Shown: piece by piece, positions 1-54,200 of the stretch
Numbering within the stretch: position 1 is the first letter of the stretch
How the letters are laid out: every line of letters starts with the position of its first letter
Virus record (IMG/VR): IMGVR_UViG_3300021368_000002
Length of the DNA stretch: 64,000 bases
Direction: 5' to 3' (one strand)
DNA from: a virus
Taxonomy: Duplodnaviria > Caudoviricetes
Translations under genes and position numbers: made by a program
The notes under the pieces: model-generated
Told to the model about the DNA's origin: nothing
Seen by the model: the letters and a program-made list of their open reading frames with translations, nothing else
Databases searched by the model: none

Positions 1-36
1 TATAATGTAATTGCATATTGTATTTATTGGATTTAG

Positions 37-408
37 ATGTTATTAAAAGAAATTGCAGAAAACTTTCCCTTTGTTAGCGTTGTTACATACGGCGGGCAAG
101 AGTTTGTCGGAATAGTCATTAACCAGGATCAATGGGTGACTAGTATGTATGTATACACAGATTTAAGAACACAGGAAGAAAAACAACTCTTACTAGATTT
201 AGGAGAGATTTGGTGGTGGGAATCAAATAGAATGATTCCTATTAATATCTTTTTGAGAGAAGAAATGAGTCCTTTCAAATATGCTATTCAAACAATGAAT
301 AGTAAGGACGTAAAGGTAAGCATAGGGCCTGTTGTTAACTTAAATGATATGCAAATAAAACGTGTAAAAAGAAAAAGCGTACAACTTGTGCGTAAACCAA
401 AAAATTAA
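37..408 (+). CDS. hypothetical phage protein (123 aa)
   Basis: Clean ORF with globular composition, converging on and overlapping the next gene by 4 nt; TATAAT at 1-6 may be its -10 box. Confidence 0.7.
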   Translation: MLLKEIAENFPFVSVVTYGGQEFVGIVINQDQWVTSMYVYTDLRTQEEKQLLLDLGEIWWWESNRMIPINIFLREEMSPFKYAIQTMNSKDVKVSIGPVVNLNDMQIKRVKRKSVQLVRKPKN

Positions 409-33417: not shown

Positions 33418-34581
33418 ATGTCAAAAGTACTAGTAATCGGTGATATTATAATTGACAAATACATTTACGGAACAAGCACACGCTTGAGTCCAGAGGCACC
33501 TGTGCCTGTTGTTACTCAAGAACGCACTATAGAAACACAAGGCGGTGCAGGACTAGTTTACGAAAATCTACAAAGTCTAGGTGTTGACGTAGATTTATTT
33601 GACTATTACTATCCTAAAAGCACTAAAACAAGAGTACTATGTGACGGACATTACATTACACGTATAGACGACGATGTTATTGTACCTGGTGAAAACACAC
33701 TAGAAGACATCCTTAAAAAAGATTTTAGTGAATACACATATGTTATACTAAGCGATTATAAAAAAGGTGTTCTAGAAAAATCATACGAGATTATAGAACA
33801 TATTAACAAGTTTGGGTGTAAAGTAATAGTAGATCCAAAAGACCACTATACTTTCTATAATGGTGCCTGGATTGTAAAACCCAATGAAAAAGAATTTACA
33901 GAACTAGACTTTGATCTTTGGCAGGGCAATATTGTAATTACCAAAGCTAGTAATAATGTAATTGCTAAAATTGACGAAAAATTTTACGATGTTCCTGTAG
34001 AGCCTGTAGAAGTGTCGGACGTTACAGGTGCAGGAGATTGCTTTTTAGCAGCATTTGTTTATGCACTAACTAAAGATTACGACTATGGAACAGCATTAAA
34101 ACTAGCTGTTCAAGGATCGACTGAAAGTGTTAAACACGTAGGTACATACATTTTAAAAGAATCCGATTTAAAAAAGAAAGTAGTGTTTACAAATGGGTGT
34201 TTTGACATACTACACAAAGGCCATTTAACACTATTGAAAGAGGCACGCGAATTAGGCGATAAATTAATTGTTGGTCTAAACAGTGACAGTAGTGTAAAAC
34301 TATTAAAAGGTAACAACCGTCCAATCAATGACCAAAACACACGCCAAGAACAGCTAGAGCTCATACCATACGTAGACGAGGTAGTAATTTTTGAAGAAAA
34401 AACACCCTATGAATTGATAAAATCACTATCACCAGACCTTATTGTAAAAGGTGGTGATTATACTGTAGAAGAAATAGTCGGGCATGACCTTGCTCCTGTA
34501 CATATTGTACCAACTGTAAAAGGTCATAGCACTACAAAAATTATAGAGGAAGCAAATGAAGATATTAATTACAGGCTATAA
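33418..34581 (+). CDS. hldE: bifunctional heptose-7-phosphate kinase / heptose-1-phosphate adenylyltransferase
   Basis: GDIIID..RLSPEAPVPV, DVTGAGD; FTNGCFDILHKGH, GLNSD, KGGDY, GHSTT. Confidence 0.93.
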   Translation: MSKVLVIGDIIIDKYIYGTSTRLSPEAPVPVVTQERTIETQGGAGLVYENLQSLGVDVDLFDYYYPKSTKTRVLCDGHYITRIDDDVIVPGENTLEDILKKDFSEYTYVILSDYKKGVLEKSYEIIEHINKFGCKVIVDPKDHYTFYNGAWIVKPNEKEFTELDFDLWQGNIVITKASNNVIAKIDEKFYDVPVEPVEVSDVTGAGDCFLAAFVYALTKDYDYGTALKLAVQGSTESVKHVGTYILKESDLKKKVVFTNGCFDILHKGHLTLLKEARELGDKLIVGLNSDSSVKLLKGNNRPINDQNTRQEQLELIPYVDEVVIFEEKTPYELIKSLSPDLIVKGGDYTVEEIVGHDLAPVHIVPTVKGHSTTKIIEEANEDINYRL

Positions 34582-35386
34582 AGGATTTATTGCCCAAAAT
34601 TTAGGAAGATACCTACATTCCCGTGGACACGATGTAGAAGGGTTTGACTGGATTCCTAACACTTTGCCAGCAGTTGACTATTATGACCAAATTATTCACC
34701 TAGGTGCAATTAGTAGTACCACTTGTACTGACGTTGATGCTGTTATGGAACAAAATTTAGACTTTTCTACGAGACTTTTAGGCCTCTGCGAAGCTCATGG
34801 TGTTAATTTAATGTATGCATCAAGTGCAAGCGTATATGGTCCATTGCCTGAATGTAAAGAAGATGGTCCTGTCTTGCCAAAATCACCCTATGCATGGTCA
34901 AAATACCTATTTGATAGAATTATTAATGCTACTGATATTGACAGTTTTGGGTGCAGGGTTCAAGGTTTTAGATATTTTAATGTATATGGTGAATTTGAAG
35001 AGCATAAAGGTCCTCAAGCAAGCATATTCCACCAGTTCAAACGTCAAGCAACTGAAGGAAGGATTAAACCTTTTGTAAACAGCGACAACTATTACAGAGA
35101 CTTTATCTATGTAGGTGATATTTGCCGTATCACTGAGATGTTTTTGAACGTAGATGAAAATGGAATATGGAATTTAGGTACAGGTAAAGCTGAAAGTATT
35201 GGTAACATTGCAAAATATATGAGTGAGACACTAAATGTGCCAATTGAAGAGGTAGAAATGCCTATAGAACTGAAAGATCAGTACCAAAAGTACACAAAAA
35301 GTGATAATACCAAGCTAATCAACTCAATTGGCGACTATAAATTTTTAACACCTTACGAATGGATGGATCAATGGCTACAAGACTAG
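34556..35386 (+). CDS. hldD: ADP-L-glycero-D-manno-heptose 6-epimerase
   Basis: ITGYKGFI, HLGAISST, YASSASVYG, YAWSK, RYFNVYG..EHKG.QAS. Confidence 0.88.
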   Translation: MKILITGYKGFIAQNLGRYLHSRGHDVEGFDWIPNTLPAVDYYDQIIHLGAISSTTCTDVDAVMEQNLDFSTRLLGLCEAHGVNLMYASSASVYGPLPECKEDGPVLPKSPYAWSKYLFDRIINATDIDSFGCRVQGFRYFNVYGEFEEHKGPQASIFHQFKRQATEGRIKPFVNSDNYYRDFIYVGDICRITEMFLNVDENGIWNLGTGKAESIGNIAKYMSETLNVPIEEVEMPIELKDQYQKYTKSDNTKLINSIGDYKFLTPYEWMDQWLQD

Positions 35387-35763
35387 AAGGAAAAGTAGAA
35401 AAAGGTTGGGGTTTCGAGCTAATATGGGCTACAAACGAGCATTATTGCGGGAAAATCCTATTTTTTGAAAAAGCAGGTGCAAAATTTTCAATGCACTTCC
35501 ATAAAGAGAAGGACGAAACGTGGTTTATTAACAATGGCCGCTTTATAGTCCGGTGGATTGACACAAAAACAGCCCAGTTGCATACACAAGAGCTAAAAGA
35601 AGGAGATGTTTGGCATAATCCTCCATTGCAACCTCATCAATTAGAGTGTATTGTTGCTGGAAGCAGTTTAACAGAAGTATCTACTCCAGATTCTGTTGAA
35701 GATAACTATAGAGTTGCGCCAGGCGACAGCCAAAGTGCTATGCCTGGGCCTCACCCCACTTAA
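35371..35763 (+). CDS. cupin (lyxose/mannose-phosphate isomerase-like)
   Basis: KGWG.E.IW, FSMHFHKEKDETW, PHQL, TEVST. Confidence 0.8.
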   Translation: MATRLEGKVEKGWGFELIWATNEHYCGKILFFEKAGAKFSMHFHKEKDETWFINNGRFIVRWIDTKTAQLHTQELKEGDVWHNPPLQPHQLECIVAGSSLTEVSTPDSVEDNYRVAPGDSQSAMPGPHPT

Positions 35764-38700
35764 GAATAACGTTTGAAGGAATAGCATTTCCTGAAGTTTT
35801 GTAAACATTAAGTGCTAACACGTCTGGACCGTTAGGAAATGTACCTCTACCACCTAAACTTGTGTTTGTAAGTTCTTTGATTGATGTAAGATCAATAACA
35901 GAACGTTCTCCCGGCACAGCGATAAATTTAAATATTGTTTCGCCTGGCTGTGCGTATACAGGTGGTGTTAAGCTCATAACAATAGTTGACCCAGCAGTCA
36001 ACCCTGTACCAGTTTGTGAGTATGTAATCCTATAAAATGTTGTAGTGTCAACTGTAATTTTCTGCACAGAAACAACCTGTGTACCAGCTGGGAAGTGTGT
36101 ATCAGTAGAATCTATGTTAGTTCCTTCTGTAGCATTTGAGGCTTCCCAACTTAATGCGGTAACAAGAGCATAGTTTGCATTTTCAGGTCCTAATGGATAT
36201 CCAAAAGTATAAGATGTGCCTGCATTAACTCTGTCTTTTGTTCTTCTGCTAAGTTGTACTCGTATGTAAGAACCATATGTGTTTACCTGAGTTACAGTTG
36301 TGTTGTTTCTAATATAATCACTAGGAGTTCCTGGTCCATTATATTCAACTGTCATACCTACTTGTATTGAACTACCACTTGGAACTGAACTTGTTGCAAT
36401 GTAAATTACATTTGTATTATTCCATGCCTGATAATATAGTGTAGCGTTAAAGCTAGGGGCAGTTGATAGTGTGGTTAAATTTGCTGTAACAGGCGTTGCA
36501 TCACCCCAGACAATAGCACCACTTGGCGCAATTTGAGCAAAACTAGGCTGTCCACCTTGTGCTTCGCCTCCTAGGTCTGTCCAACCAACATCTGCTGGAT
36601 TTTCAGGATAGTTCTGTGGATTTAAGATACCTTCAACAACAATACCTCCTGTATCACTTGCAGCTAATGGTTCGGAAGTAATTTCAATACCATTTAATAG
36701 CAACTGGGCTCTGTTTAATAATTCTCTATCACCAAGGTCGCCTGTAATAGCGTTAGAAACACTAGGCGCAAGTCTAATCATTAATGCAGTATTACGAACT
36801 GTACTTGCTTCAATGTTTGTAGCAGCATAAGAGAAAATGTAACCACGATCTTCATCAAAGCCACCATCTGTAATAAATGCTGATCCCCAGTGACTGATAA
36901 TAGGTGTAATAGTATTACTAATTAACACAACACCTGTTCTTCTTTCATGTTCAACAGCTGGTCCTGCTGTATACTGTCTTTGAGCGCCTGCTTGGAAGTT
37001 TGTCATTGTTGTACCTCTTGTACAACCTGTCAAATCATTTCCACTAACTCCTGTAAATGTTATAATTTCGTTATCAATTAACAATGTGCCGCCATCTGGA
37101 GGAAAGAAACTAGCGTCTTCTAATGTAATAGTAGTTTCAACATCATCTAAGTGTTCTGCAAGTTTGCCTGGAGGTCCTTCATTAGTAACTTCATAACGCA
37201 CAGGCAAGTTTCCTGAACGCATGAACGCTTCTGTGTTTACGTTTGAGTTACGCATTCTGTGACAGAATATAAAGTTACCATCTGCACCACGCAACATAAA
37301 GTCGATAAATCCAGCACCATACCAAGAATATTGAATTCCAATCATTTGCATTTTAGATATATCAGTATCGTATCCACTTTGCCCAGTTCCGTCTAATCTA
37401 TCTAAATTAAATGAATCTTGCTTGACTTTTTTATCTATTACAATACAACCTTTTGCATTGTAAGCAGGTGATACGCCTCTATAATCAGGTGTAACAATCA
37501 TTTCTGTTTGAGAATTTACATGAGCAACAACGTGTGTCATTCCTCTAATAACAATTCTATCACCTGCTTTTAATTGATCTTTAAATCTAGTTCCTGTGCC
37601 AGAAATAACATTTTCATCTGGATTTACATTAAGTGTACCTGCTATCTGGAACGTTGAACTTCTTTGTACAACAGAAATATTTCTCCCATCGTATTCCCAG
37701 AAAATTCCGTTTTGATCATCATATGCACCAGCCCTAACTGTAGCACCGTGCCAATTTAAAACTGATATTTGGCACCCAAATCCTAGTATAGGTATTTTGC
37801 TTCCTAATTGTGTAGTTGCAACTACTCTAAACTTTCTTTCTGAAACAATGTCAGAAACTCTATACGTACCGTCATAGCCTGCTGTGCTTACACCAATAAG
37901 TTTTATTGTACCGCCAACTTGTAATCCGTGATCCACATCGTCAGTTTCGATTGTTAATATATCTCCTACTCCTGTACCTGTGCTTTCTATGCTAAGAACA
38001 TCATAACTAGGTGCAAACAATGCACCAGTAGTATACATAATACCTTTACCTGACTGATATCTAATGTAGTTTTTACTTTGACGTATGGCTTGCGCACCGT
38101 GTTGTGGTCCGCCTGTACCTAGCTGAACACCACCATCATACGGTCTATGAATAAAGAAAGAATCTGGTCTGGTGTAAATAGTTGCAGTAATACTAGTTGC
38201 AATGTCTATTGTACCTGCCGTTCTAGCAACATATCTTAATTTGTTTTTTTCTGGTACATTTGTTGCAATAAATGATCCACCTGCCAAAGCATGGTTATTT
38301 GACCCGTCATCCGATGCAACTGCAACAATGAATGTTCCGCCCGGTATTAATCCATGAGGATTATCAAACTGAACTTCTATTGTTGCTAGACTTTCAAAAT
38401 CAATACTTGTTGTAGCAGGTAATGCTGCTGTAGTAGTTTCTGTAAATGTAACAGTTCCATAAAAATTAATAGCTGCTGCTGCTGTCACTGTACCTGTGAT
38501 TGTTGCTGTTAATATTGCACCTACACTATCTATACTTTCTACAACAATAGTTGCATCATTTGTTGGAGATGCGCCTCCTAAAGATTCGCCGCTAATAAAA
38601 ATAGTATTACCAGGATAATAGCCTGTGCCTGTACCGCCTGGATCAACTTCTATGCTATACGCACTGACTGTTCTAGTTATATCAAATGCTGCTGCTGTTC

Positions 38701-41700
38701 CATTAAGTGGAGAGTATGTGCTGTTTGTATTAGTATATGTACCCGATCCGTTTCCGCCTGTTCCTGAAACAGTTGCAGTTAAAATTTGTCCGCTCGAATC
38801 TACTGTCGATACGGTTATTGTTGCATCATTAGCCGGAGTTACACCGCCGATTTCATTACCTGGAACAACAATAGTATCGTTCTGTCTATAGCCTAAACCA
38901 CCATTATCTACAGATTGAACAGTGTAAACTTGACTAGCAAGGTTAATTGTAAATACAGCACCTGCACCTGCTACGTTTGTTCCTGAAATGCCGATTGCTT
39001 CCCCTACGTTTGCTGCTGTTCCTGAATGGTTAATTTGGGTGATTTCGCCTGTGCCTAAATCTATATCAGCCACAGTAATTGTTAAATCATTTGTCGGTGA
39101 TGTACCTCCTAGATTTGCACCAGAAATAGTTAGAGTATCGCCTATATTATATGCTGTACCACCGTTTTGCACTGATGGAGAGTATGTAGTTCCTGTTCTG
39201 CTAACAATAAATGCTGCATCTGCTCCGCCACTTGCAGTTGTATACGCAGGATCAATATAATTTCCAAATCCGTCCGGTGCTGTTCCAGATACAGTTACGC
39301 TTGTAATTTCTCCGTTTGAACCAACTGTGCTTACAGTAACTATTAAATCATTTGCAGGTGTTGCTCCGCCTACTTGATCACCAGTTATAGTGATTTCGTC
39401 TGTCGTAGTATAATTAGCACCCCTTAAATCAGGAGCTGTACCTGCAATGCTTGCTGTTAGAACTGCACCTGTTCCATCAACTGTCAAAACAGTTATAGTT
39501 GCATCATTAGCTGGAGATGATCCGCCTACTTGTGCACCTGTAAGTAAAAGTTGATCACCTTGTGAATATTCTTGACCGCCGCCGACTACAGTAACACTAT
39601 AGCTAGATCCTGTTGCACTTATGTCAAAACTTGCACCAGTACCATAAATTACATTTCCTGTTTGAGCTCCATAGTTTGCCTCATTTACTGCCAAACCTGC
39701 TCCGCTTACTCCAGTGATTCCTCCACTGCCGTCTACACTAGTTATTGTAATGGTACAGTCGTTAGTAGGACTAGATCCACCTAAATCTGTACCTGGTACA
39801 ACAAATGTTTCATTTTGAGAATACCCTGTACCTGGATTTGTAATTTGAGGGCTATATGAAGTACCGTTTGTTTGCACAACAAAACTTGCATCTACGCCGC
39901 TGCCGCCGCTATAATTAAGAGTCACAGATGCATAGTTATTTTGGGCATCTACTGCTGTTCCAGCAACACTTACACTTAAAATTTCTCCAGTAACACCGTC
40001 TACACTTGCTACAGTTACAATACAATCATTTGTACCATCGACGCCACCTAAGTTACTACCTAATATTCTTATATTGTCGCCTTGCTGATAAGATAAACCA
40101 CCATTCTGGACAGTGGCAAAATATGAATTATTTCCTGTTGTGATTAATAAAATAGCACCATTGCCGTCAGGTTCTTCTGCATCTATAGGAAATCCATTTA
40201 AGGCAATTTGACTTGTAGTAGCCGAGTAAACATTATTAGTGTATGTTATATCAAATGCTGCACCAGTACCTTGACCGTTTTGAAGTTGTCCTGCTATATT
40301 AGGAAATAATCCGTCAGCAGGTGCAGCAGTTCCCGTACTTGATATACTAGTAATGTCTCCGCTTGCGCCTACACCTGTTACCCTAATAAATAAATCATGT
40401 GTTGGCGATGTTCCGCCTAATAAATTACCTGCAATCTGTAGCGAATCATTTACATCATATCCCGAACCAGCATTATTTATAGTAGGAGTATACGATCCTG
40501 CAGATCTAACTACATCAAATCTTGCATCAATACCGCCTGATGTTGTTTTAAGTGTGCCAACGACTCCTGTATACTCAACATTAGAACCAGGAATAGGAGA
40601 TGTAATTGGACCACTTAAAGTAACAGTATTTCCACTTACTTGAGTAACAGTTACACCTTCTCCGTCACCCCTGTCCATTCCGTAACCAACTAGTATGCCT
40701 GAAGCACTTGTAACATCAAATTCACTTACTCCTGATGGAATATCTTGTGCAGTGTCTGCGGTGAATTCTATACCAGCACCTGTGCCGTTTATTGCTGTAA
40801 CCTGAGCACCAGTAGGAATAGCACCAGTTGCATCAACTAAAGGAGCACCAATTTCTGGAACATCTCCTGAAAATCCAATTGTGTCACTTTCGCTTGGCCA
40901 ATCTAAATTTACAGCAAAAGTACCAGAACTACCATTACTTGCTACTGTAAATTCTGGATCGCCTATTGCAGCGCCAGTAAAATAGCCTGCTTTCCTTAGC
41001 TGTGTATAGGTTGTAGAAATGACTTCGCCATTAGTTGTTCCTACTTTTGATTTGGCATAAAAATTAAATTGTTTATCGTTTACAACTTGATTTACTGCAA
41101 AGCTGCCTTCAGCTCTGCCAAATCCTAGTGCAGAACTACCTAATCCTTTTATTGTAAAAGGACCGCCTTGAGATAATCCATGAGTAACAATAGTGTTAAC
41201 AGTTATTAAACTAGAACCAATGCCTTGTGTTCCAGAAGAAGCATCTGTAGTCACAGACTCTACGCTTATTTCTGTACCAGGTATTTCGTAAATAGAAGGG
41301 TAACCTCTTGCCATACCAATCGCTTGCCATTTGGTTGGCTGTAGTCCATATTCAAAGTCAGCATCAAGCATAGACTGAGCGTTAGCAACTCTGTTTCTTT
41401 CGATTGCATCTGTACCAAAATCATATGGTCTTACACGTTGTTCTTTTTCTTCAACAAAGATTTGTAATCTATCAGTTGATGCATGAGTTGCTGTATTGTA
41501 GTATAATTTTAATGATGTAATAGTATCAGCTGTTTGATCAAAGCTAGGAAAATCTGTTTCGTTTAAGTTATCACTATCTTTTAAAAATTCAACTTCTGCA
41601 AGTTTTGTTGGATCGCTAAAGCTATATACAACATGGCCTTTTGTAACATTTGTTATTAACAAAATGTCTTCTTCGTTATAACGACCTTGGAAACGTATAG

Positions 41701-42742
41701 TTCCTAGTCCGTTTGTTTTTGTTCCCATATTACTAGTACCATTTTGTATGGTATTTGTTAATAGTAATGTAAGCGCAGTTAAATTATCTGTTGTTCCTGC
41801 TTCTGTGCTAATTTGAGGATCAAAAGATTGTTGTGTAACAACAGGTGTTTGTAAAGTCGTATGAGCTACTTGAGGTAAAATATTATTGTTAATTAAATCT
41901 CTTATCCAATTATGTGTTTCTATTTCAGGTGTCCTAGGTCCATCAATCTGAGGAACATCTTGTACCCAATATTTTTCTGCGGTTTCGAATGTTTCTTTGT
42001 TTCCACCATACTGTAAATCTTTAATATATGCATCTAATACATAACCTACGTCTCTTTCGCATTTATATGTATTGTAGGTATAATCAGCAAAAGCATATCC
42101 ATATGTTGCTGTAGGCAAACTACCTAGTCCATTGTTTACAACAGCTAGAGCACTTGTAAGAATATTGCCTACCTTAATTTGGGCTGCTGGTTCGCCGTTG
42201 TTTGAATTAGTTGCTTGAACTTGACCGACTTGCTGTACAGGATTTTTTATAGTATTAATAAGAATAAAATCCGTAATTAATGCTTCTAGCTCTACATAAA
42301 CATCATTATAAACATCAAAGGTAGGTTCATGTAAAGAAGTTTCGTCATTCCAGTTATTAGACATATGAGCATTAGTTTTATAATTACCGCCATATCTTAC
42401 ATCATATTCTAATGCATTTAAGAAATTTGTCAAATCTGTATTCCAGTAAGCATCATCATATGTAATACCTATAAAGTTGCCCTGGTTTGTAGAAATTTGT
42501 GATTGTATCCATGCTTTCATTTCTGCTACTATAAACTGTTTATTGATGTTCAACAGAGTATAGGCAAATGGATAATCGTTTTGAGCAGTATCTGTTGTAA
42601 TTCTTCCGTTAATATAACCAACTGATTCGTCTTTAATAAATTCTTTATTTGCTTCTAGTAAAGCAGTTGCATTTGGACGTTCATTATCTAGAAGTCCATT
42701 TCCCGGATTAAAAACGTATGTAGGTATTTTTCTCTTTGCCAT
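35738..42742 (-). CDS. 2334-aa virion structural (tail/baseplate appendage) protein
   Basis: N-terminal phycobiliprotein-like helical domains, eight Gly/Thr-rich repeats, RQSKNYIRYQSGKG domain typical of T4-like marine phage structural proteins. Confidence 0.75.
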   Translation of the reverse strand: MAKRKIPTYVFNPGNGLLDNERPNATALLEANKEFIKDESVGYINGRITTDTAQNDYPFAYTLLNINKQFIVAEMKAWIQSQISTNQGNFIGITYDDAYWNTDLTNFLNALEYDVRYGGNYKTNAHMSNNWNDETSLHEPTFDVYNDVYVELEALITDFILINTIKNPVQQVGQVQATNSNNGEPAAQIKVGNILTSALAVVNNGLGSLPTATYGYAFADYTYNTYKCERDVGYVLDAYIKDLQYGGNKETFETAEKYWVQDVPQIDGPRTPEIETHNWIRDLINNNILPQVAHTTLQTPVVTQQSFDPQISTEAGTTDNLTALTLLLTNTIQNGTSNMGTKTNGLGTIRFQGRYNEEDILLITNVTKGHVVYSFSDPTKLAEVEFLKDSDNLNETDFPSFDQTADTITSLKLYYNTATHASTDRLQIFVEEKEQRVRPYDFGTDAIERNRVANAQSMLDADFEYGLQPTKWQAIGMARGYPSIYEIPGTEISVESVTTDASSGTQGIGSSLITVNTIVTHGLSQGGPFTIKGLGSSALGFGRAEGSFAVNQVVNDKQFNFYAKSKVGTTNGEVISTTYTQLRKAGYFTGAAIGDPEFTVASNGSSGTFAVNLDWPSESDTIGFSGDVPEIGAPLVDATGAIPTGAQVTAINGTGAGIEFTADTAQDIPSGVSEFDVTSASGILVGYGMDRGDGEGVTVTQVSGNTVTLSGPITSPIPGSNVEYTGVVGTLKTTSGGIDARFDVVRSAGSYTPTINNAGSGYDVNDSLQIAGNLLGGTSPTHDLFIRVTGVGASGDITSISSTGTAAPADGLFPNIAGQLQNGQGTGAAFDITYTNNVYSATTSQIALNGFPIDAEEPDGNGAILLITTGNNSYFATVQNGGLSYQQGDNIRILGSNLGGVDGTNDCIVTVASVDGVTGEILSVSVAGTAVDAQNNYASVTLNYSGGSGVDASFVVQTNGTSYSPQITNPGTGYSQNETFVVPGTDLGGSSPTNDCTITITSVDGSGGITGVSGAGLAVNEANYGAQTGNVIYGTGASFDISATGSSYSVTVVGGGQEYSQGDQLLLTGAQVGGSSPANDATITVLTVDGTGAVLTASIAGTAPDLRGANYTTTDEITITGDQVGGATPANDLIVTVSTVGSNGEITSVTVSGTAPDGFGNYIDPAYTTASGGADAAFIVSRTGTTYSPSVQNGGTAYNIGDTLTISGANLGGTSPTNDLTITVADIDLGTGEITQINHSGTAANVGEAIGISGTNVAGAGAVFTINLASQVYTVQSVDNGGLGYRQNDTIVVPGNEIGGVTPANDATITVSTVDSSGQILTATVSGTGGNGSGTYTNTNSTYSPLNGTAAAFDITRTVSAYSIEVDPGGTGTGYYPGNTIFISGESLGGASPTNDATIVVESIDSVGAILTATITGTVTAAAAINFYGTVTFTETTTAALPATTSIDFESLATIEVQFDNPHGLIPGGTFIVAVASDDGSNNHALAGGSFIATNVPEKNKLRYVARTAGTIDIATSITATIYTRPDSFFIHRPYDGGVQLGTGGPQHGAQAIRQSKNYIRYQSGKGIMYTTGALFAPSYDVLSIESTGTGVGDILTIETDDVDHGLQVGGTIKLIGVSTAGYDGTYRVSDIVSERKFRVVATTQLGSKIPILGFGCQISVLNWHGATVRAGAYDDQNGIFWEYDGRNISVVQRSSTFQIAGTLNVNPDENVISGTGTRFKDQLKAGDRIVIRGMTHVVAHVNSQTEMIVTPDYRGVSPAYNAKGCIVIDKKVKQDSFNLDRLDGTGQSGYDTDISKMQMIGIQYSWYGAGFIDFMLRGADGNFIFCHRMRNSNVNTEAFMRSGNLPVRYEVTNEGPPGKLAEHLDDVETTITLEDASFFPPDGGTLLIDNEIITFTGVSGNDLTGCTRGTTMTNFQAGAQRQYTAGPAVEHERRTGVVLISNTITPIISHWGSAFITDGGFDEDRGYIFSYAATNIEASTVRNTALMIRLAPSVSNAITGDLGDRELLNRAQLLLNGIEITSEPLAASDTGGIVVEGILNPQNYPENPADVGWTDLGGEAQGGQPSFAQIAPSGAIVWGDATPVTANLTTLSTAPSFNATLYYQAWNNTNVIYIATSSVPSGSSIQVGMTVEYNGPGTPSDYIRNNTTVTQVNTYGSYIRVQLSRRTKDRVNAGTSYTFGYPLGPENANYALVTALSWEASNATEGTNIDSTDTHFPAGTQVVSVQKITVDTTTFYRITYSQTGTGLTAGSTIVMSLTPPVYAQPGETIFKFIAVPGERSVIDLTSIKELTNTSLGGRGTFPNGPDVLALNVYKTSGNAIPSNVILKWGEAQA
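38490..40490 (-). repeat. eight protein-level repeats G.GY..GD.I.I.G..LGG.SPTND..I.V..VD..G.I
   Basis: Counted in the translation; diverged at DNA level. Confidence 0.85.
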
Positions 42743-44163: not shown

Positions 44164-44169
44164 TATTTA
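44164..44169 (-). promoter_or_regulatory. late-type promoter gaTAAATA
   Basis: Upstream of an AAGGGG Shine-Dalgarno. Confidence 0.55.
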
Positions 44170-45939
44170 TCGCAAGGTAACTAACTTTCCGTACTCAGGC
44201 AAGTACAAGTAATCCAGATCACTTTGTTGTAAAGTCCAAAATGCATCTTCTAATGTTTCTACCAATGGTTCGCCACCTAAATTAAAACTCGTGTTGAAAA
44301 TAATAGGGCAGCCGGTCTTATCTTTAAATGTTTTAATTAGATCATAATAATTTGGATTCTGTTCTCTATTAACAGTTTGTATACGACAAGTACCATCTAC
44401 ATGAATAATAGCAGGAATCTTTTTCTCAATGCCAGGTTGACAGTTTACAGCATACATCATTGTAGGAGACGACTTCATACCACGTAGATCAAACCATTCA
44501 TGTGCATCTTCTTCAAGAATTGATCCAGCAAACGGACGGAAGTATTCTCTACGTTTAACTTCATTCACAAAATCCTTGCCATTAGGATCTGTAGGATCAT
44601 ATAGTATACTTCTGTTACCTAATGCACGTGGTCCATTTTCTGATCTTCCTTGGAAAATACATACAATATTTTTTTCTGTAATTAAATTTACTACATCCTC
44701 ATTAGTAGCGTCTTCTACAGTTGCTCCCCACTCTTCAGCTAAAGTTTCTATTTTATTTGAATAATCGTATTCAAATCCTAAGTACAATATATCTTGTCTA
44801 CCGTTATTTTTTGTAATTTTAGTTAAACTACGCCAATGTAGATATGCTGCACCAATAGCTGTACCGCAATCATTACTTACAGGTTCTACATATATTTCTA
44901 TACCGTCTTTTTGAAGATGCTGCAAATAAAAATAGTTAGCTACACAATTTAATCCATACCCGCCACTTATTACTACTTTTTTATGTCCTGTTAGTTCAAC
45001 TGCTTTATAAATTAAATTTAGAACTTGCTGTTGTGTTTGGGTTTGAACAGCATATGCCATGTCTCTCCTATTTTGTAATAGAGTAAGATCTTGACTATCG
45101 TGGTTGTCTAAATATTCAAAGTGTCCAGAGTTAACAAACGCTCCGTTTGGATAATTAGGAGTTATTATATTTCTATTAGAATATTCGCCTCTATCTGTTT
45201 TTTCAAATAGCGGCGGTATATCATCATTAGGTTTACCGTAAGGAAACAACCCCATTGTTTTTCCTGCTTCAATAAAATCCCAACCACAATAATTTGTTAC
45301 TGCTTCATACGTTTTTGTAATACCAGCTTTTTCAGTTACTGCTAATTCTATAGTTCCTTTTTCGTCGATAAAATCTGCATTACTTTCTTTATTGTAGCTA
45401 CTAAGCATAGGACCTCTTCCGCCTAAGTGCTTGTATTTTGTTTCAAAAATATCAGGATATCTACAATCAAAAATAGACTCAACTTCCCATATAGTTTCAT
45501 ATTCATTTGCAGGAATAAATGTACCTGCGCCATCAACTACGACTGCTGCTGCTTCATCAAACCCACTTCTGTAAAATGCACAAGCTGCATGAAGTTTGTG
45601 ATGATATTTTGCCATATCTATTACTTGGGGATGCTCTCCTGGCATTGCTTGTTTTTGTATCAATCCTAGCTTGCGAGCTAATGCTGTATAAATGTCCTCT
45701 CCTGTAAAGTCATTCTTGCCAGCTGTTTCCTGCAATGGTTGAGTATGAGCAATAACCAACCAGTCTAGTTTATCAGTATATTCTAATATTTTTGTCATCG
45801 ATGCAAGAGGTCCGCCGTCATATTTGACACGACTTAAACGTTCTTCTTCTATACTGAATACAACTTCACCGTCCTTAAGTAATGCAACACTTGCATTATG
45901 TCCTCTTGCTATTGCAGCAATCCATGTACTACTTTTCAT
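44167..45939 (-). CDS. carbamoyltransferase (NodU/CmcH/TobZ family)
   Basis: GHNASVA, EEERLSRVK, HH..HA, VVDGAG, GKTMGL..YG, SGGYGLN, GPRALGNRS, KRRE.FRPF, HVDGT.R.QT, NTSFN..GEP. Confidence 0.95.
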   Translation of the reverse strand: MKSSTWIAAIARGHNASVALLKDGEVVFSIEEERLSRVKYDGGPLASMTKILEYTDKLDWLVIAHTQPLQETAGKNDFTGEDIYTALARKLGLIQKQAMPGEHPQVIDMAKYHHKLHAACAFYRSGFDEAAAVVVDGAGTFIPANEYETIWEVESIFDCRYPDIFETKYKHLGGRGPMLSSYNKESNADFIDEKGTIELAVTEKAGITKTYEAVTNYCGWDFIEAGKTMGLFPYGKPNDDIPPLFEKTDRGEYSNRNIITPNYPNGAFVNSGHFEYLDNHDSQDLTLLQNRRDMAYAVQTQTQQQVLNLIYKAVELTGHKKVVISGGYGLNCVANYFYLQHLQKDGIEIYVEPVSNDCGTAIGAAYLHWRSLTKITKNNGRQDILYLGFEYDYSNKIETLAEEWGATVEDATNEDVVNLITEKNIVCIFQGRSENGPRALGNRSILYDPTDPNGKDFVNEVKRREYFRPFAGSILEEDAHEWFDLRGMKSSPTMMYAVNCQPGIEKKIPAIIHVDGTCRIQTVNREQNPNYYDLIKTFKDKTGCPIIFNTSFNLGGEPLVETLEDAFWTLQQSDLDYLYLPEYGKLVTLR

Positions 45940-45941
45940 AA

Positions 45942-46907
45942 TTATGCAGCCACCTGCGGTTTACCATTCCATTTTTTTTGATTGTTAACAACACTCTTAA
46001 CAATAACTTCTTCAATTTTTCCATTCATCACCATAACACCTTCATTAGTTCTATCTGCTAATTCATCTGCTGTAATTCTAATTGGACTATAAACACGAGC
46101 GCCTTCTCCCATGTCGAGTATATCAAAGTACTTACAATCTGGATAACTGATGTTTTCTTTAAATGTGCTTCCTATTACAACTGTGCTAGGAGTTTGCATA
46201 GAATAGGCAATATGTTGACCTACACTATCACATCCTAAGAAATAATCTGCGCAATTTATTATAGCAGCCCATTCTCTAATACTTGTGTTTAAAGGAACAG
46301 CAATAGGCTCGGTTACACCGTATTCATTAAACTGAATAGCAACTTCTCCCATAAACACTACAGCCATTTTTTTACTTAGAGCTTTAACAAGATTAATGAC
46401 AGATTCTGGTTCAAAACTTCTTCCGCTTGGATCCATTATTAATCCTTCTTGATTAACAACTCCCCTGCCGAACGGTTGAAAAACTAATACTTTATCTTTT
46501 TTAGTTTTTTCTTTTACTTCTTTAAGCAACTTAGTTGCCTGAAACATTTCTTCTTTGCCTAAATAAATATTTGGTTTAGGTAAGTCACGTAATCCTTTGT
46601 TGTTAATAGCAATATCATATGCCTGATTTAAGTGTGCTTTTTGATTGTAATATTCCCAAACTCTGTAAGGTTCTGGACTTAACAACTCCATGTCTTTTAA
46701 TTTTTCTTCAAATAGATTCTTATGCCATACGTCATAAGCTCTCTTAAATAAGGTCGGGTGACCTTTATAAAAATCTGTTCCGCCTTCGCATACAATTATA
46801 AAGTCGTCATCAGGATTTTCTTTTTCATATAATTCTAATGCAGGAATGCTAGAAATTACTCTGCCTGCACCACCGTTTATAAAAATAGCTGTATTTCGTT
46901 TGGTCAT
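45942..46907 (-). CDS. GT9 (heptosyltransferase)-like glycosyltransferase
   Basis: FQPFG, ADYFLGCDSVGQHIAYS..P..V..G (GT9 DSG..H.A motif); N-terminal GGAGRVI. Confidence 0.7.
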   Translation of the reverse strand: MTKRNTAIFINGGAGRVISSIPALELYEKENPDDDFIIVCEGGTDFYKGHPTLFKRAYDVWHKNLFEEKLKDMELLSPEPYRVWEYYNQKAHLNQAYDIAINNKGLRDLPKPNIYLGKEEMFQATKLLKEVKEKTKKDKVLVFQPFGRGVVNQEGLIMDPSGRSFEPESVINLVKALSKKMAVVFMGEVAIQFNEYGVTEPIAVPLNTSIREWAAIINCADYFLGCDSVGQHIAYSMQTPSTVVIGSTFKENISYPDCKYFDILDMGEGARVYSPIRITADELADRTNEGVMVMNGKIEEVIVKSVVNNQKKWNGKPQVAA

Positions 46908-51239: not shown

Positions 51240-54200
51240 TTACGAGTTCAAAAAGTATTGCAGTGCCAAAGGTGTGCCACTTAGTCCTGCTTCAAAATTA
51301 ATTGGTTTATCAATTGTTATTCCGCTACTATCAGTTGTTGTAATAGTGTTACCTGAAATTTGTACCACACCAGCAACAAGCGTATTTACATTAAGAGTAG
51401 CTGCACCGCCACCAATTTGTGAGTTAATATAAGTTCTGATCGCTCGCTGCGTAGGAACAATTTCATCACTATCAGCAGCAAATGTTCCGTCAGTGCTAAA
51501 TTCTTTAATTGTTGCACTTGTACCACCTAATGATACAGAACCTAGTTGTAGTTCTTGCAACCCGCTAACACTAAAGTTGTCAGCATCTAGTGTAGCAGTA
51601 CCAGTTGCCTGTTCAACAGTAAACAAGTCGCCAACTCTAAAGTTACCATCTTGGTCTGTTGATGTATAGAATACTCTACCACCGCCACCTTCTACAGTTT
51701 CATTAGCAGGAGTTGGATTTTGTAGCGGAATACCCGGATAATTGGTTTGTGTGAAATTACCTGTACCAATATCTAGGAAATCGTGTCCTGTTAATCGCAC
51801 TTGTGAATATCTAATTCTATGTGTTACTGCCGCAGCGTGAGCAGGTTCCCCATCTACAGGAATCTCTGGACTTAATTGCAATCTAGCAGTATATGGTCCA
51901 GAACCACCTAATTCAAATAATTGAACAAGTTTGTAGATTGTACTATCGCCTGCTATTTGAATATTTGCTCCAGGTTGCGGTTCGTCGGTTAAATTTTCTA
52001 CATAAACATATTTTCCGCTTTGTAAAATATCAGCATAACCGTCACCAGTTACATCTGCACTTGCTGTCTCATAACCTGTTCCTCTATCAGCAAAGGTAGG
52101 TTGTGCAAGCACTCCGCTACCTACTCTTACCGTATGGGGTACATCTACAGTGTTGTTTGGATCTGTAATTGTCATTGTAGGCGGACTTGCAGGATCATAT
52201 CCAGTGCCCGGTTCTATAATTACAATTTTAAATATTTTATCACCTGCGACTTTTGCTCTTCCTCTTGCAGTTGTTCCAGTTACTGGATCAGCAAACGTAA
52301 CTCTTGGCTCTATTCTATAGTTTGATGTTTGATCTAATGTAGTTTCAATAGCAGTTCCAGGAACAAGATGGTCCCATCCTGCTGTATCGTCACTCATTTT
52401 CTTTACTGTTGCAATTTTTGTACCAGCATTGTATGTGTCAATATAAGCATATTGTCCTACCCCTACGCCGTCTTCTATATAGATTGCCATACCAACATAG
52501 TCTGCACTATTTGCTGTATCTGTGTTCGAAATAGTAATAGTAGTTGATGTACCGCTTTGAGCATTATTGAGTGCTGTTGTGTAATCTGCACCACCATAGT
52601 TATTTGCTGGATTAGTAAGTTGCACTGCAAAAACACCATTTGTCCTTGTATTTACTGCACTAACACTTGCACCTATACCTTCACCTACAAAGCTATAAGA
52701 TGCTGTTGTGTAGTTAACACCTGCATTTTCGTATTCTAGTGCTAATATTCTACTACCATCTGTAAATACGCTATTAATAATAGCTTCTGCATAGTAGTTA
52801 TTTACTGTACCTGTTATAGGTGTTTCAGTAGTATCAATACCTTCAGCTACTGATCCAAAATCACCATAAGAGTTGTTTCCGTTTGTAGCACGAATCTTAC
52901 CACCGTTCTCTGCAAGATATCCAATATGGTTGTAATACGTAAACACTGACACAAGTTCTGAGCGGCCTAAGTTTGTTACCCAGTAACCAATACCATCACT
53001 TAGAATCTGTGTAAAGTCGTTAGCAACAATTGAATCGTTTCCGCCTGCGTGTAGATCACCATCTACTTTTAATCCTATACAAGCTGTACCAAATGTTGAA
53101 ACGTTTTGAATGTAAGGTGATTTGTTATGAATCCATACAAGCCTATCATCTACACCCTCGCCTGGATCTAAACTCACATATGCACCTGCTGATGGACGAC
53201 TTGTGCCATAAGAATTTGCAGCGCCTAAAGTACCTGTAAGTCCTGCTAGTGTGCAATTTCTAATACCACATCCGTTTCTAACATAAAACATATTTTCAGT
53301 TAGTGAATCACCGTCTGGAGTAATTCTTGTACTACGTAATTCGTCTCCAACAATAGCTGTATGTGAAGGAACACTAATCGGTAATGCTTCTGCATATGTT
53401 CCTGTCTTAACATATAGTGTATTATGAATCACTTGTTCTGCAGGTAAACTTGATAAGTTTCCTGCTGTAATCGCTGCTGTTATATGTGAAACAAGTGAGT
53501 CGTAAGTGCTTTCAGCATCTGTTTCTGCTGTGTAGGCTACATCAATTACTTGTGTAACTGGAGTTGCTACACTGTTTTCTGTTTGGTAATTTGTTGCAGG
53601 AGGTGTATTTCCTAAAACTGCTGCTACAACATCTAAACTGTAATTTATTGCTGCAACTGTTTCTGTTTCCTGGCCAGCAACGTAACTTGCACCAGCTGTT
53701 GTAAAATATGACTGCGCTGCTTTTCTTGTTTCTACATTACCGCCATGTGATATATCATACCCTACGTGTTTTACAATTCTTTTCATATCACGTAAACATT
53801 TTGTTTTATCGTATGTAAATGCTCCTGTAAATGGCGCAATCGCATTTGCAATTTGATAATCAACCCATTCAACTGTTTCTGCTGCAATAAAATCAATATT
53901 TTGATCTAAAAGATATTTTGCATTTACACGAGTAGTTGCATTAAGTATTTGTGAACAAGCATATGCAACTGTTAGCCAAGGCCTGTCTGCTGTAATACCA
54001 TATGTCGGAGCAGGAGAGTCTGTACCTTGTGGTGAAACATAATAGACATTATCTACAAGTCCAAAATAATCCCATTCTACACCAGTGCCAGCAGTGTCAA
54101 CTTTTAAAACTTGTCCCGGGTCACCAATTGGTAATCTAGTAGGTCCAGCTCCTGAATAATAAAGAATATCACCATCTGTTGTTAAAACATTTTCTTCAGC

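What the first reader, a model, noticed from the sequence alone, without database searches (positions are those of the whole stretch)
41740..42680. Second and third phycobiliprotein-like copies, one nested inside the other, at the N-terminus of the 2334-aa protein
Seen: the outer copy begins NATALLEANKEFIKDESVGYI. It is interrupted at about 42580-42105 by a complete inner copy (FAYTLLNINKQFIVAE..YDDAYWNTDLTNFLNALEYDVRYGGN) and resumes YNTYKCERDVGYVLDAYIKDLQYGGN (Cys codon 42059-42061). KCERDVGYVL closely matches alpha-phycocyanin KCARDIGYYL. The inner copy lacks the Cys. Inference: a mobile domain duplicated into its own surface loop, giving a covalent pair reminiscent of an alpha/beta heterodimer with one potentially chromophorylated and one bare subunit.
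Basis: partly seen in the sequence, partly recalled or inferred. Interest (0 to 1): 0.8.

Follow-up and report, generated by a model that had tools for sequence, protein, structure and literature searches.

The report
Nested phycobiliprotein-fold domains in phage fibre
The first 345 residues of a giant phage tail-fibre-like protein are two copies of the fold that cyanobacteria use to hold light-harvesting pigments, one inserted inside a loop of the other; the outer copy keeps the pigment-attachment residues and the inner has lost them, so it can now be tested whether phage particles carry a bilin pigment.

Summary
ORF 35738-42742 (-) encodes 2334 aa.
- Residues 22-57 plus 216-345 form an outer domain. 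It is split by a complete inner domain, residues 58-215.
- The outer copy has Cys228-x-Arg230-Asp231. The inner copy has Trp100-Asn-Thr-Asp103 at the same place.
- The spliced outer copy aligns end to end with the inner copy and with the uninterrupted copy in the 1425-aa fibre (shuffle z 12.7-15.5).

A profile of 89 domain copies hits almost only phycocyanin alpha chains in the PDB (best E 8.6e-4, Cys84 aligned). The AlphaFold2 model has pLDDT 90. The inner copy superposes on phycobiliproteins at Z 14.4, and the outer C-part at Z 8.9 onto residues 59-184.

The nest is old and follows a rule. Of 128 orthologues, 60 read N-N-C-C, and others hold two or three inserted domains or deeper nests. The insert sits in the helix B/E loop, where ApcE carries its PB-loop.

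There are no X-Y helices, and most orthologues keep Cys in both copies.

Bilin attachment is untested; I put it at about 0.4. Cys, Arg and Asp are 96-98% conserved over about 1900 copies, and Cys and Arg are lost together.

This scan had already noted phycobiliprotein-like fibre modules on this genome and on at least seven others. The nesting is the new part.

The parts
35738..42742 (-). Gene for the 2334-aa virion structural, tail-fibre-like protein (P0001)
   Evidence: ORF list and translation. PHROG 5838 'virion structural protein', E 2.8e-246; the N-terminal 420 aa hit tail-fibre PHROGs 4527 and 5342. No Pfam hit at E<=1 for residues 1-420.
42680..42742 (-). Conserved N-terminal peptide, residues 1-21 (MAKRKIPTYVFNPG...), disordered in the model
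   Evidence: 137 proteins in the retrieved set start with M-x-K-x-x-[IVL]-x-x-Y-x-F. M1, K3, Y9, F11, P13 and G14 are at least 90% conserved. pLDDT is under 50 for residues 1-11.
42572..42679 (-). Outer copy, N-part (residues 22-57): the equivalent of phycobiliprotein helices A/B, cut off from the rest of its domain
   Evidence: N-part HMM hit E 5.1e-10. Shuffle z 9.4 against the inner N-part. Helices 23-31 and 33-52 with pLDDT 95-98. N32 and E39 are invariant in 40 orthologues, as are the equivalent N67 and E74 of the inner copy.
42098..42571 (-). Inner copy (residues 58-215): a complete phycobiliprotein-fold domain inserted in the B/E loop of the outer copy. The attachment motif is lost (Trp100-Asn-Thr-Asp103).
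   Evidence: HMM hits: N-part 6e-12, C-part 5.3e-16. VIA-align: model 51..203 on phycobiliprotein beta 27..177, Z 14.4, rmsd 2.5 A over 130 residues; 210 chains at Z>=8. It lies on a long branch in a clade with the Cys-less inner copies of P0191 and P0035 (100/98).
42443..42445 (-). Trp100 codon (TGG), at the position of the attachment Cys in the inner copy
   Evidence: Sequence read; alignment columns.
41708..42097 (-). Outer copy, C-part (residues 216-345): the equivalents of helix E to helix H, with Cys228-Glu-Arg230-Asp231, Asp242 and Gly246-Gly-Asn248
   Evidence: C-part HMM hit E 2.8e-37. Modelled alone: pLDDT 86.8, pTM 0.81. In an unbiased search of 48,161 PDB chains the top hit was phycoerythrin beta 5aqd_M, Z 8.9, rmsd 2.6 A over 112 residues, model 6..125 on chain 59..184; 8 of the top 10 are phycobiliproteins or ApcE.
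42059..42061 (-). Cys228 codon (TGC), candidate ligand-attachment residue of the outer copy
   Evidence: Sequence read. C228 and R230 are at least 90% conserved and D231 is invariant in 40 orthologues. The domain Cys aligns with Cys84 of phycocyanin alpha in the profile alignments.
53424..53969 (-). The uninterrupted copy of the same domain in the 1425-aa fibre (P0002 residues about 517-700). It serves as the reference for the splice.
   Evidence: HMM hits: N-part 1.5e-11, C-part 1.9e-30. BLASTP to the spliced outer copy E 6e-12 with a 2-residue gap at the junction. PF00502 hit at 13.4 bits, below the cut-off.

Best explanation
ANATOMY (shown, except the last step).
- The N-terminal 345 residues of a giant virion fibre or baseplate protein of a T4-like jumbo phage are two globin-like domains of the phycobiliprotein fold, arranged as a nest.
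- A complete domain (residues 58-215) is inserted in the loop between the helix B and helix E equivalents of a second domain (22-57 plus 216-345).

HISTORY (shown at the level of sequence comparison).
- The nest arose once, early, by duplication of the domain within the same protein.
- It is inherited by more than 100 orthologues.
- The B/E loop then acted as an expansion slot. It now holds one, two or three complete domains, nests within nests, or, in the closest relative, an unrelated insert.

HOW IT WORKS (inferred).
- The outer domain carries the chain onward into the fibre.
- The inserted domains leave and re-enter at one point, so they project sideways.
- The outer copy keeps Cys228-x-Arg230-Asp231, which is homologous to the bilin-attachment and bilin-contact triad of phycobiliproteins. 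Its single most likely function is to bind a bilin covalently. I put this at about 0.4.
- The bilin would come from the host or from a phage heme oxygenase and bilin reductase. Attachment could be autocatalytic, as in BBAG globins.
- The inner copy of this phage is a degenerate apo domain. It has lost Cys and Arg but keeps the residues that hold the fold together (Asn67, Glu74, Asp114, Gly-Gly-Asn 118-120).
For: NESTING.
- Split HMMs give the order N, N, C, C, with no room for a missing part at either junction.
- The spliced outer copy aligns end to end with uninterrupted copies.
- Among 128 orthologues the domain strings are NNCC 60, NNCNCNCC 13, NNCNCC 7, NNCNNCCC 5 and NNNCCCNC 3.
- 135 proteins have tight N-N or C-C junctions. 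In 121 of them the junctions are balanced, with N-N before C-C.
- N32 and E39 of the separated helix are as invariant as N67 and E74 of the inner copy.

FOLD.
- AlphaFold2 on residues 1-348: pLDDT 90.2, pTM 0.83, with the same helix pattern twice.
- Inner copy on phycobiliproteins: Z 14.4, rmsd 2.5 A over 130 residues.
- Outer C-part on phycoerythrin beta residues 59-184: Z 8.9. It was the top hit among 48,161 chains.

HOMOLOGY.
- With the profile of 89 copies, 32 of 33 PDB hits at E<=10 are phycocyanin alpha chains. The best is E 8.6e-4, with Cys84 aligned.
- PF00502 is the only Pfam family hit by more than 2 of the 89 copies: 13 hits, best 6.4e-5.
- Three relatives carry precomputed PF00502 hits.

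INSERTION SITE.
- In the ApcE rows, helix E starts at residue 134-144, after the PB-loop, while the B region lies around residue 50-76.
- ApcE has a 50-70 aa PB-loop inside its alpha-like domain (PMC11789067).

AGE OF THE NEST.
- All 29 outer C-parts cluster together (89/85).
- The N-terminal block domains separate from the array domains at 98/96.

LIGAND SITE.
- In 1915 copies, Cys is kept in 96%, Arg in 96% and Asp in 98%.
- Among 1870 unique copies, Cys is lost in 59. Arg is also lost in 35 of those, against 30 of the 1811 that keep Cys (odds ratio 87, Fisher 2e-40, not corrected for relatedness).
- Cys is replaced mostly by F, L, W or I. The fold-holding Asp at +14 stays (99.7% of all copies).
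- BBAG globins with CXRD attach bilins without lyases (PMC10151467).
- The purpose of phage hemO plus FDBR genes is called 'enigmatic', and a bilin-binding globin is named as one possibility (PMC11480375).
- The one complete related phage genome I could search has an adjacent heme oxygenase and bilin reductase.
Against: - No coordinates or error map of the model could be read, so contact between helix 22-52 and residues 225-334 was not seen directly.
- A coupling score learned from 525 uninterrupted copies picked native N/C pairs in 69% of held-out comparisons. It did not prefer the outer C-part over the inner one for the outer N-helix (25 of 57 orthologues).
- Foldseek E-values for the whole model are weak, 0.2-1.
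- This protein's own copies give no PF00502 hit at E<=1.
- Nothing shows a bilin on any of these proteins.
- CpeT-type lyase was found in 0 of 5 related phage records, and a bilin reductase in 1 of 10. Nine of the ten are fragments.
- The phage domain has invariant residues of its own (Asp at +9 and +14, Asn at +20) that phycobiliproteins lack. Part of the motif may therefore serve the fold rather than a ligand.
Confidence: 0.7

Rival explanations
1. The anatomy is the same, but the domains are purely architectural. They would be a rigid helical building block for fibres, descended from a bilin-binding globin but no longer binding anything. Cys, Arg and Asp would be kept because they hold the helix E region together.
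For: - The domain is used as a repeated shaft unit, up to 36 matched stretches in one protein.
- It has its own invariant polar residues next to the motif (Asp at +9 and +14, Asn at +20) that phycobiliproteins lack.
- No lyase was found in 5 related records, and a bilin reductase in only 1 of 10.
- To my knowledge no coloured phage particles have been reported, and my literature searches found none.
Against: - Copies that lost Cys and Arg, including this inner copy, still keep the fold-holding residues. This inner copy is modelled with high confidence. Cys and Arg are therefore not needed for the fold, yet they are kept in 96% of about 1900 copies and lost together (odds ratio 87).
- The triad is homologous in position to the bilin triad of phycobiliproteins.
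Confidence: 0.3
2. There is no nest. Residues 22-57 would be an orphan N-terminal helix, comparable to the X/Y arm that precedes the globin core of phycobiliproteins and belonging with the complete domain 58-215. Residues 216-345 would be a truncated second domain without its first helices.
For: - Some superpositions extend from model residue 32-37 onto phycobiliprotein residue 12-14, which places helix 33-52 roughly where helix Y lies (rmsd about 6 A).
- The coupling score did not link the outer N-helix to the outer C-part (25 of 57).
- Contacts could not be inspected.
Against: - The helix is homologous to the N-part (helices A/B) of the domain itself (HMM E 5.1e-10, z 9.4), with the same invariant Asn and Glu.
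- The extra N-part at the start is matched by exactly one extra C-part at the end, however many complete domains lie between. Only 1 of 128 strings has one N too many.
- The extended superpositions are poor, about 6 A against 2.5 A.
Confidence: 0.12
3. The nested pair would be a covalent mimic of the phycobiliprotein alpha/beta heterodimer, with one pigmented and one bare subunit, selected as a pair.
For: - In this phage one copy has the motif and one does not.
- pTM 0.83 suggests that the two domains are held in a fixed relative position.
Against: - There is no counterpart of the X-Y hairpin that makes the alpha/beta interface (plus established knowledge of phycobiliprotein structure).
- Orthologues carry one to three inserted domains.
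- 32 of 40 orthologues keep Cys in both copies.
- The relative orientation could not be compared with an alpha/beta monomer.
Confidence: 0.05
4. The site is functional but the ligand or chemistry is not a bilin. Examples would be another tetrapyrrole, a metal, or a thiol-based cross-link between fibre subunits.
For: - Cys, Arg and Asp are strongly conserved and lost together.
- Bilin genes are scarce in the related records searched.
Against: - The whole helix B, loop and helix E region aligns with phycocyanin alpha, not just the Cys.
- Related globins with CXRD bind bilins (PMC10151467).
Confidence: 0.15

Closest known systems
Light-harvesting phycobiliproteins (Pfam PF00502; phycocyanin, phycoerythrin and allophycocyanin alpha and beta chains)
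   Same: - Globin-like core from helices A/B to H. Inner copy: Z 14.4, rmsd 2.5 A over 130 residues. Outer C-part: Z 8.9 on residues 59-184.
- Cys-x-Arg-Asp on helix E, aligned with Cys84, Arg86 and Asp87 of phycocyanin alpha. The Gly-Tyr after the motif and the Gly-Gly at the helix end also coincide.
   Different: - No X-Y hairpin.
- About 12% identity.
- Below Pfam's cut-off for this protein.
- Part of a 2334-aa virion protein rather than a free 160-180 aa subunit.
- Has its own invariant residues (Asp at +9 and +14, Asn at +20).
- One domain is nested in another.
- No pigment has been shown.
ApcE (core-membrane linker) alpha-like domain with its PB-loop
   Same: It is a phycobiliprotein-fold domain interrupted by an insertion just before helix E. 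In the superpositions, ApcE's B region lies around residue 50-76 and helix E starts at 134-144. The PB-loop is 50-70 aa and lies inside the alpha domain (PMC11789067). The fold tolerates the insertion, and ApcE still carries its bilin.
   Different: - ApcE's insert is a loop, not a folded copy of the same domain.
- ApcE attaches its bilin through a different Cys (my own knowledge, not tested here).
BBAGs, the bilin biosynthesis-associated globins (PMC10151467)
   Same: - Distant phycobiliprotein paralogues found outside light harvesting.
- Many carry CXRD.
- They attach bilins without lyases.
- They are linked to heme oxygenase and bilin reductase genes.
- They were proposed as a possible target of phage-made bilins (PMC11480375).
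   Different: - BBAGs are free-standing cellular proteins.
Phycobiliprotein-like modules in phage fibre and baseplate proteins noted earlier in this scan (e1-5341453 on this genome; e1-5342814, e1-5381869, e1-5365264, e1-5365255, e1-5337015 and e1-5357618 on others)
   Same: It is the same domain family. The representative search found 674 proteins at E<=1e-3, many with 10-36 matched stretches.
   Different: Those notes, as far as they were shown to me, describe single or tandem copies. Here one copy is inserted in another, at the conserved N-terminus of one orthologous protein family, and the nesting follows a rule.

Membership tests
Phycobiliprotein (Pfam PF00502) | Match to the Pfam model above its gathering score (22.2 bits) | tested here: not met
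   No PF00502 hit at E<=1 for P0001 or for its residues 1-420. The uninterrupted copy in the window scores 13.4 bits. 13 of 89 family copies hit at E<=1, best 6.4e-5. Three relatives carry precomputed PF00502 hits.
Phycobiliprotein (Pfam PF00502) | Globin-like helical core (helices A/B, E, F, G, H) superposable on solved phycobiliproteins | tested here: met
   Inner copy: Z 14.4, rmsd 2.5 A over 130 residues, model 51..203 on chain 27..177; all 50 rows shown are phycobiliproteins, ApcE or related biliproteins, at Z 12.4 or more, and 210 chains reach Z>=8. Outer C-part alone: top hit of 48,161 chains, Z 8.9, on residues 59..184. Z 8.9 on its own lies in the range common for helical proteins; it counts because 8 of the top 10 hits are phycobiliproteins or ApcE.
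Phycobiliprotein (Pfam PF00502) | N-terminal X-Y helical hairpin that forms the alpha/beta monomer | tested here: not met
   Low-rmsd superpositions begin at phycobiliprotein residue 27-37. They extend to residue 12-14 only by borrowing the outer copy's helix, at rmsd about 6 A. The inner copy starts directly after the outer N-part, which leaves no residues for a hairpin.
Phycobiliprotein (Pfam PF00502) | Cys-x-Arg-Asp on helix E at the Cys84 position | tested here: met
   Outer copy: Cys228-Glu-Arg230-Asp231. The domain Cys aligns with Cys84 in the profile alignments to phycocyanin alpha. Inner copy: not met, Trp100-Asn-Thr-Asp103.
Phycobiliprotein (Pfam PF00502) | Covalently bound bilin chromophore | not testable with these tools
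   Needs expression with bilin synthesis genes, or mass spectrometry of virions.
Phycobiliprotein (Pfam PF00502) | Assembly into alpha/beta monomers and trimeric rings | not tested
BBAG (bilin biosynthesis-associated globin) | Genomic association with heme oxygenase and a ferredoxin-dependent bilin reductase | tested here: inconclusive
The window's whole genome is not held. Of 10 related phage records, 1 has an adjacent heme oxygenase and bilin reductase; it is the only complete one. The other 9 are 20-75% complete.
BBAG (bilin biosynthesis-associated globin) | Sequence or tree placement within the BBAG lineages | not tested
Domain-insertion (nested) architecture of one domain in a copy of itself | Parent domain split into two parts that flank a complete inserted domain, with no room for the missing parts at the junctions | tested here: met
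   Order N(8-45), N(42-83), C(94-214), C(221-345). The spliced parent aligns end to end with uninterrupted copies. Junctions are balanced in 121 of 135 proteins.
Domain-insertion (nested) architecture of one domain in a copy of itself | The two parts of the parent pack together into one fold | tested here: inconclusive
   The model has high confidence (pTM 0.83) and the split helix keeps its invariant Asn and Glu. Contacts could not be read, and the coupling score did not favour the outer pairing (25 of 57).

The most novel reading that the evidence does not exclude
The fibre would be a biliprotein. Cys228 of the outer copy, and the equivalent Cys of the many copies in related fibres, would carry a covalently bound bilin made by the host or by the phage's own heme oxygenase and PcyX-type reductase. 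Virions would then be pigmented. That would give the 'enigmatic' phage hemO-FDBR cassettes an acceptor, and could underlie light-dependent adsorption. The nest would hold a pigmented outer domain and a pigment-free inner domain in fixed geometry.
Probability: 0.33. Interest if true: 0.9.

Novelty: new variant of a known kind. Interest (0 to 1): 0.62.

Why it matters
- Phycobiliproteins are known as free light-harvesting subunits. Here the same fold, with the pigment-attachment residues intact, is a building block of phage particles. I found no paper that describes this.
- The purpose of bilin synthesis genes in phages, above all in those thought to infect non-photosynthetic hosts, is an open question (PMC11480375). 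A bilin-type site in the phage's own fibre is a concrete acceptor that can be tested with one co-expression experiment.
- The nest adds a natural control in a single polypeptide. One copy has the site, and one has lost Cys and Arg but keeps the fold.
- The nest also shows that the B/E loop, the place where ApcE carries its PB-loop, is a general insertion slot of this fold. It takes up to three whole domains and recursive nests. That is of interest for protein evolution and for engineering biliprotein tags.

Tried and rejected
- Complex prediction of the outer N-helix (18-57) with the outer C-part (214-348): no verdict. The chains did not fold without an alignment (pLDDT 32-37). This is no evidence either way.
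- Coupling (mean-field DCA) score from 525 uninterrupted copies. It recognises native N/C pairs in held-out data (69%, p 7e-32) and prefers the inner pair (42 of 57). It does not prefer the outer C-part for the outer N-helix (25 of 57). I count this as inconclusive.
- AlphaFold DB cluster search: only weak rows, with sensor-globin proteins at the top. It gave nothing usable.
- ESM Atlas by features: no usable hit.
- phmmer of residues 1-345 and of 345-2334 against the PDB: no hits.
It was repeated with the single protein.
- Profile search for free-standing single-domain relatives: 7 short proteins, six of them on contigs of 1-2 kb and all without a name or Pfam hit. It gave no cellular relatives.
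- The window's own record was looked for in IMG/VR with an exact 36-mer, without a match. The hemO-pcyX note for this genome therefore could not be checked.
- No near-identical DNA in the phage collection.
- No DNA tandem repeats in the gene.
CpeT was found in 0 of the 5 related records searched, though four of the five are fragments.
Full report
WHAT IS THERE

The window is part of a T4-like phage.
- It encodes gp13-, gp15- and sheath-type genes next to the locus.
- Its GC content is 34-42%.
- It has no near-identical DNA in the phage collection.
- The protein's own contigs reach 303,728 bp, so this is a jumbo phage.

ORF 35738..42742 on the minus strand encodes 2334 aa.
- The whole protein matches PHROG 5838, 'virion structural protein' (E 2.8e-246).
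- Its first 420 residues match tail-fibre PHROGs.
- Pfam finds nothing in the N-terminus at E<=1.

CHECK OF THE OBSERVATION

- The outer copy starts at N24 (nt 42673).
- The inner copy starts at F59 (nt 42568).
- The outer copy resumes around residue 216.
- Cys228 is TGC at 42061-42059.
- At the matching position the inner copy has Trp100 (TGG, 42445-42443), followed by Asn-Thr-Asp103.

I cut out residues 56-215 and joined 20-55 to 216-345 in a script. The spliced outer copy then aligns end to end with two partners:
- the inner copy: 26% identity over 167 columns, E 6e-12;
- the uninterrupted copy in the neighbouring 1425-aa fibre: E 6e-12, with only a 2-residue gap at the splice.

Against 1000 shuffles the scores lie 12.7 to 15.5 standard deviations above the mean. 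The short N-helix alone reaches z 9.4 against the inner N-helix.

THE FAMILY

An exhaustive search with residues 1-345 found 674 proteins at E<=1e-3. Many are giants with up to 36 matched stretches.

From uninterrupted copies I built an alignment of 89 domain instances (A1). I also built two HMMs:
- an N-part, covering the first helices;
- a C-part, running from the Cys-x-Arg-Asp helix to the end of the domain.

In the six-frame translation of the window these HMMs find exactly three N-parts and three C-parts. The order in this protein is N, N, C, C. The 1425-aa fibre has one of each.

RELATION TO PHYCOBILIPROTEINS, TESTED INDEPENDENTLY OF EARLIER NOTES

Sequence:
- The A1 profile searched against all PDB sequences gives 33 hits at E<=10. 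Thirty-two are phycocyanin alpha chains, the best at E 8.6e-4.
- The alignment runs from phycocyanin residue 32 to 104. It covers helix B, the loop and helix E, with the domain Cys on Cys84. The Arg, Asp, Gly-Tyr and the Gly-Gly at the helix end also match.
- Scanning each of the 89 copies against Pfam, PF00502 is the only family hit by more than two copies (13 hits, best 6.4e-5).
- Three relatives carry precomputed PF00502 hits.

Structure:
- AlphaFold2 on residues 1-348 with 40 orthologues gives pLDDT 90.2 and pTM 0.83. The same pattern of secondary structure appears twice.
- Foldseek E-values for the two-domain model are weak (0.2-1), but about 40 of the top 50 rows are phycobiliproteins.
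- VIA-align puts the inner copy (51..203) on phycobiliprotein beta chains (27..177) at Z 14.4, rmsd 2.5 A over 130 residues. 210 chains score Z>=8, and the ApcE bilin-binding domain scores Z 12.6.
- The outer C-part modelled alone has pLDDT 86.8. It was compared with 48,161 PDB representatives without any Foldseek pre-selection.
- The top hit of that search is phycoerythrin beta, Z 8.9, rmsd 2.6 A over 112 residues, model 6..125 on chain 59..184. Eight of the top ten hits are phycobiliproteins or ApcE.

So residues 216-345 correspond to helices E to H. They lack the first helices, which the sequence comparison assigns to residues 22-57.

IS IT REALLY A NEST?

Two readings fit a linear order N, N, C, C. 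Either it is a nest, or it is an orphan helix followed by a complete domain and then a truncated one.

Evidence for the nest:
- There is no room for a missing part at either junction.
- The separated helix is homologous to the domain's own N-part. It keeps the same invariant Asn and Glu: N32 and E39, against N67 and E74 in the inner copy.
- Among 128 orthologues that share the N-terminal peptide M-A-K-K-x-I-x-x-Y-x-F-x-P-G, the domain strings are NNCC (60), NNCNCNCC (13), NNCNCC (7), NNCNNCCC (5) and NNNCCCNC (3). One extra N at the start is always answered by one extra C at the end, however many complete domains lie between.
- 135 proteins have tight N-N or C-C junctions. In 121 of them the junctions are balanced, with N-N first. 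These include 8 double nests and 12 proteins with two separate nests.

These proteins are related, so the counts are not independent. The rule does hold across different architectures.

What I could not do is read the model's contacts. A coupling score learned from 525 uninterrupted copies recognises native pairs in held-out data (69%). It did not link the outer N-helix to the outer C-part (25 of 57). The complex prediction gave no verdict. I therefore put the nest at about 0.85, not higher.

WHERE THE INSERT SITS

The insert sits in the loop between the equivalents of helix B and helix E.

In the superpositions with ApcE chains, the region before the loop lies around residue 50-76 and helix E starts at residue 134-144. 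ApcE is known to carry a PB-loop of 50-70 residues inside its alpha-like domain, and it still binds its bilin (PMC11789067).

The phage protein uses the same slot for whole domains. In the closest relative (P0184, 50% identity), the inner copy's own B/E loop holds a further insert of about 120 residues of another kind.

HISTORY

A maximum-likelihood tree of 89 C-parts shows the following:
- It separates all domains of the N-terminal block from the 13 fibre-array and single copies sampled (98/96).
- It clusters all 29 outer copies together (89/85).
- Extra inserted copies group with each other.

The duplication into the loop therefore happened once, within this protein lineage, before the orthologues diverged. 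The insert later grew by tandem duplication. The root is a midpoint root and the outgroup sample is small, so the direction of events is inferred.

This phage's inner copy sits with the Cys-less inner copies of P0191 and P0035 (100/98). Its branches are long: a terminal branch of 0.85 on a stem of 0.52, against a terminal branch of 0.38 for its outer copy.

THE SITE

Conservation in 1915 C-part instances:

| Residue | Conserved |
|---|---|
| Cys | 96% |
| Arg (+2) | 96% |
| Asp (+3) | 98% |
| Asp (+14) | 99.7% |

- Among 1870 unique instances, Cys is lost in 59. Arg is lost with it in 35 of those, against 30 of the 1811 copies that keep Cys (odds ratio 87, Fisher 2e-40, not corrected for relatedness).
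- Cys is replaced mostly by Phe, Leu, Trp or Ile. The Asp at +14 and Gly-Gly-Asn mostly stay.
- The degenerate copies, this inner copy among them, are still modelled as confident domains.

Cys and Arg are therefore not needed for the fold, yet they are kept almost everywhere. This argues for a function beyond structure. By homology, the obvious candidate is a bilin.

Supporting context:
- BBAG globins, which are distant phycobiliprotein paralogues with CXRD, attach bilins without lyases (PMC10151467).
- The role of phage hemO plus bilin reductase genes is openly called enigmatic, and a bilin-binding globin is named as one possibility (PMC11480375).
I could not verify this, because no whole genome is held and the record is not in IMG/VR.
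- Among ten related IMG/VR records, only the one complete genome has an adjacent heme oxygenase and bilin reductase. None of the five records searched for CpeT has it.

I put covalent bilin binding at about 0.4, a purely structural role at about 0.3, and another ligand or chemistry at about 0.15.

The nested duplication, and the contrast between one copy with the site and one without, are right for this phage. The alpha/beta-heterodimer reading is not supported:
- the X-Y hairpin that builds that interface has no counterpart;
- the number of inserted domains varies from one to three;
- 32 of 40 orthologues keep Cys in both copies.

NOVELTY

Phycobiliprotein-like fibre modules had already been noted by this scan on this genome (e1-5341453) and on at least seven others. 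That part is therefore not new to the scan. I found no publication on it.

New here:
- the rule-bound nesting at the conserved N-terminus of one protein family;
- its location in the ApcE-type slot;
- the statistics of the site over about 1900 copies;
- the natural pairing of an intact and a degenerate site in one polypeptide.

Noticed in passing
window 38539-40417 (-), P0001 residues about 776-1401: Seven copies of a motif G-G-x-S/T-P-T/A-N/H-D-x-x-I/V-x-V, spaced mostly 85-90 residues apart. This suggests a run of roughly 87-residue repeat modules in the middle of the 2334-aa protein. There is no DNA-level tandem repeat, so the repeats are old.
   Followed up: partly
relative P0184 (not in the window), alignment A2 columns about 95-200: The closest relative (50% identity, same N-terminal peptide) has an extra insert of about 120 residues, not of the phycobiliprotein type, inside the B/E loop of its inner copy. 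That makes three levels of nesting. A similar Y-x-P-x-T-G...F-T-C...H-x-Y-P-R module follows the nest in P0035.
   Followed up: no
G002:C1:78448-79546 (record behind L076, IMG/VR, 207,029 bp, rated 100% complete): A related phage genome that encodes a distant relative of the N-terminal module has an adjacent heme oxygenase (PF01126, E 1.6e-12) and ferredoxin-dependent bilin reductase (PF05996, E 2.3e-18). It has no CpeT-type lyase.
   Followed up: partly
relatives P0161-P0165 and P0170-P0172 (not in the window): Deeper nests occur. N N C N N C C C is an outer domain holding one simple insert and one insert that is itself nested. N N N C C C is three levels of the same domain.
   Followed up: partly
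all C-part copies: The most conserved residue of the phage domain is not the Cys but an Asp 14 residues after it (99.7% of 1915 copies). Together with Asp at +9 and Asn at +20, it has no counterpart in phycocyanin alpha, and its role is unknown.
   Followed up: no
window 33418-35763 (+) and 44167-46907 (-): The fibre gene is flanked by sugar-nucleotide genes (PfkB/cytidylyltransferase, epimerase, cupin) and by a carbamoyltransferase (Pfam hits listed). Earlier notes on this window had already remarked on these. I did not examine them further.
   Followed up: no
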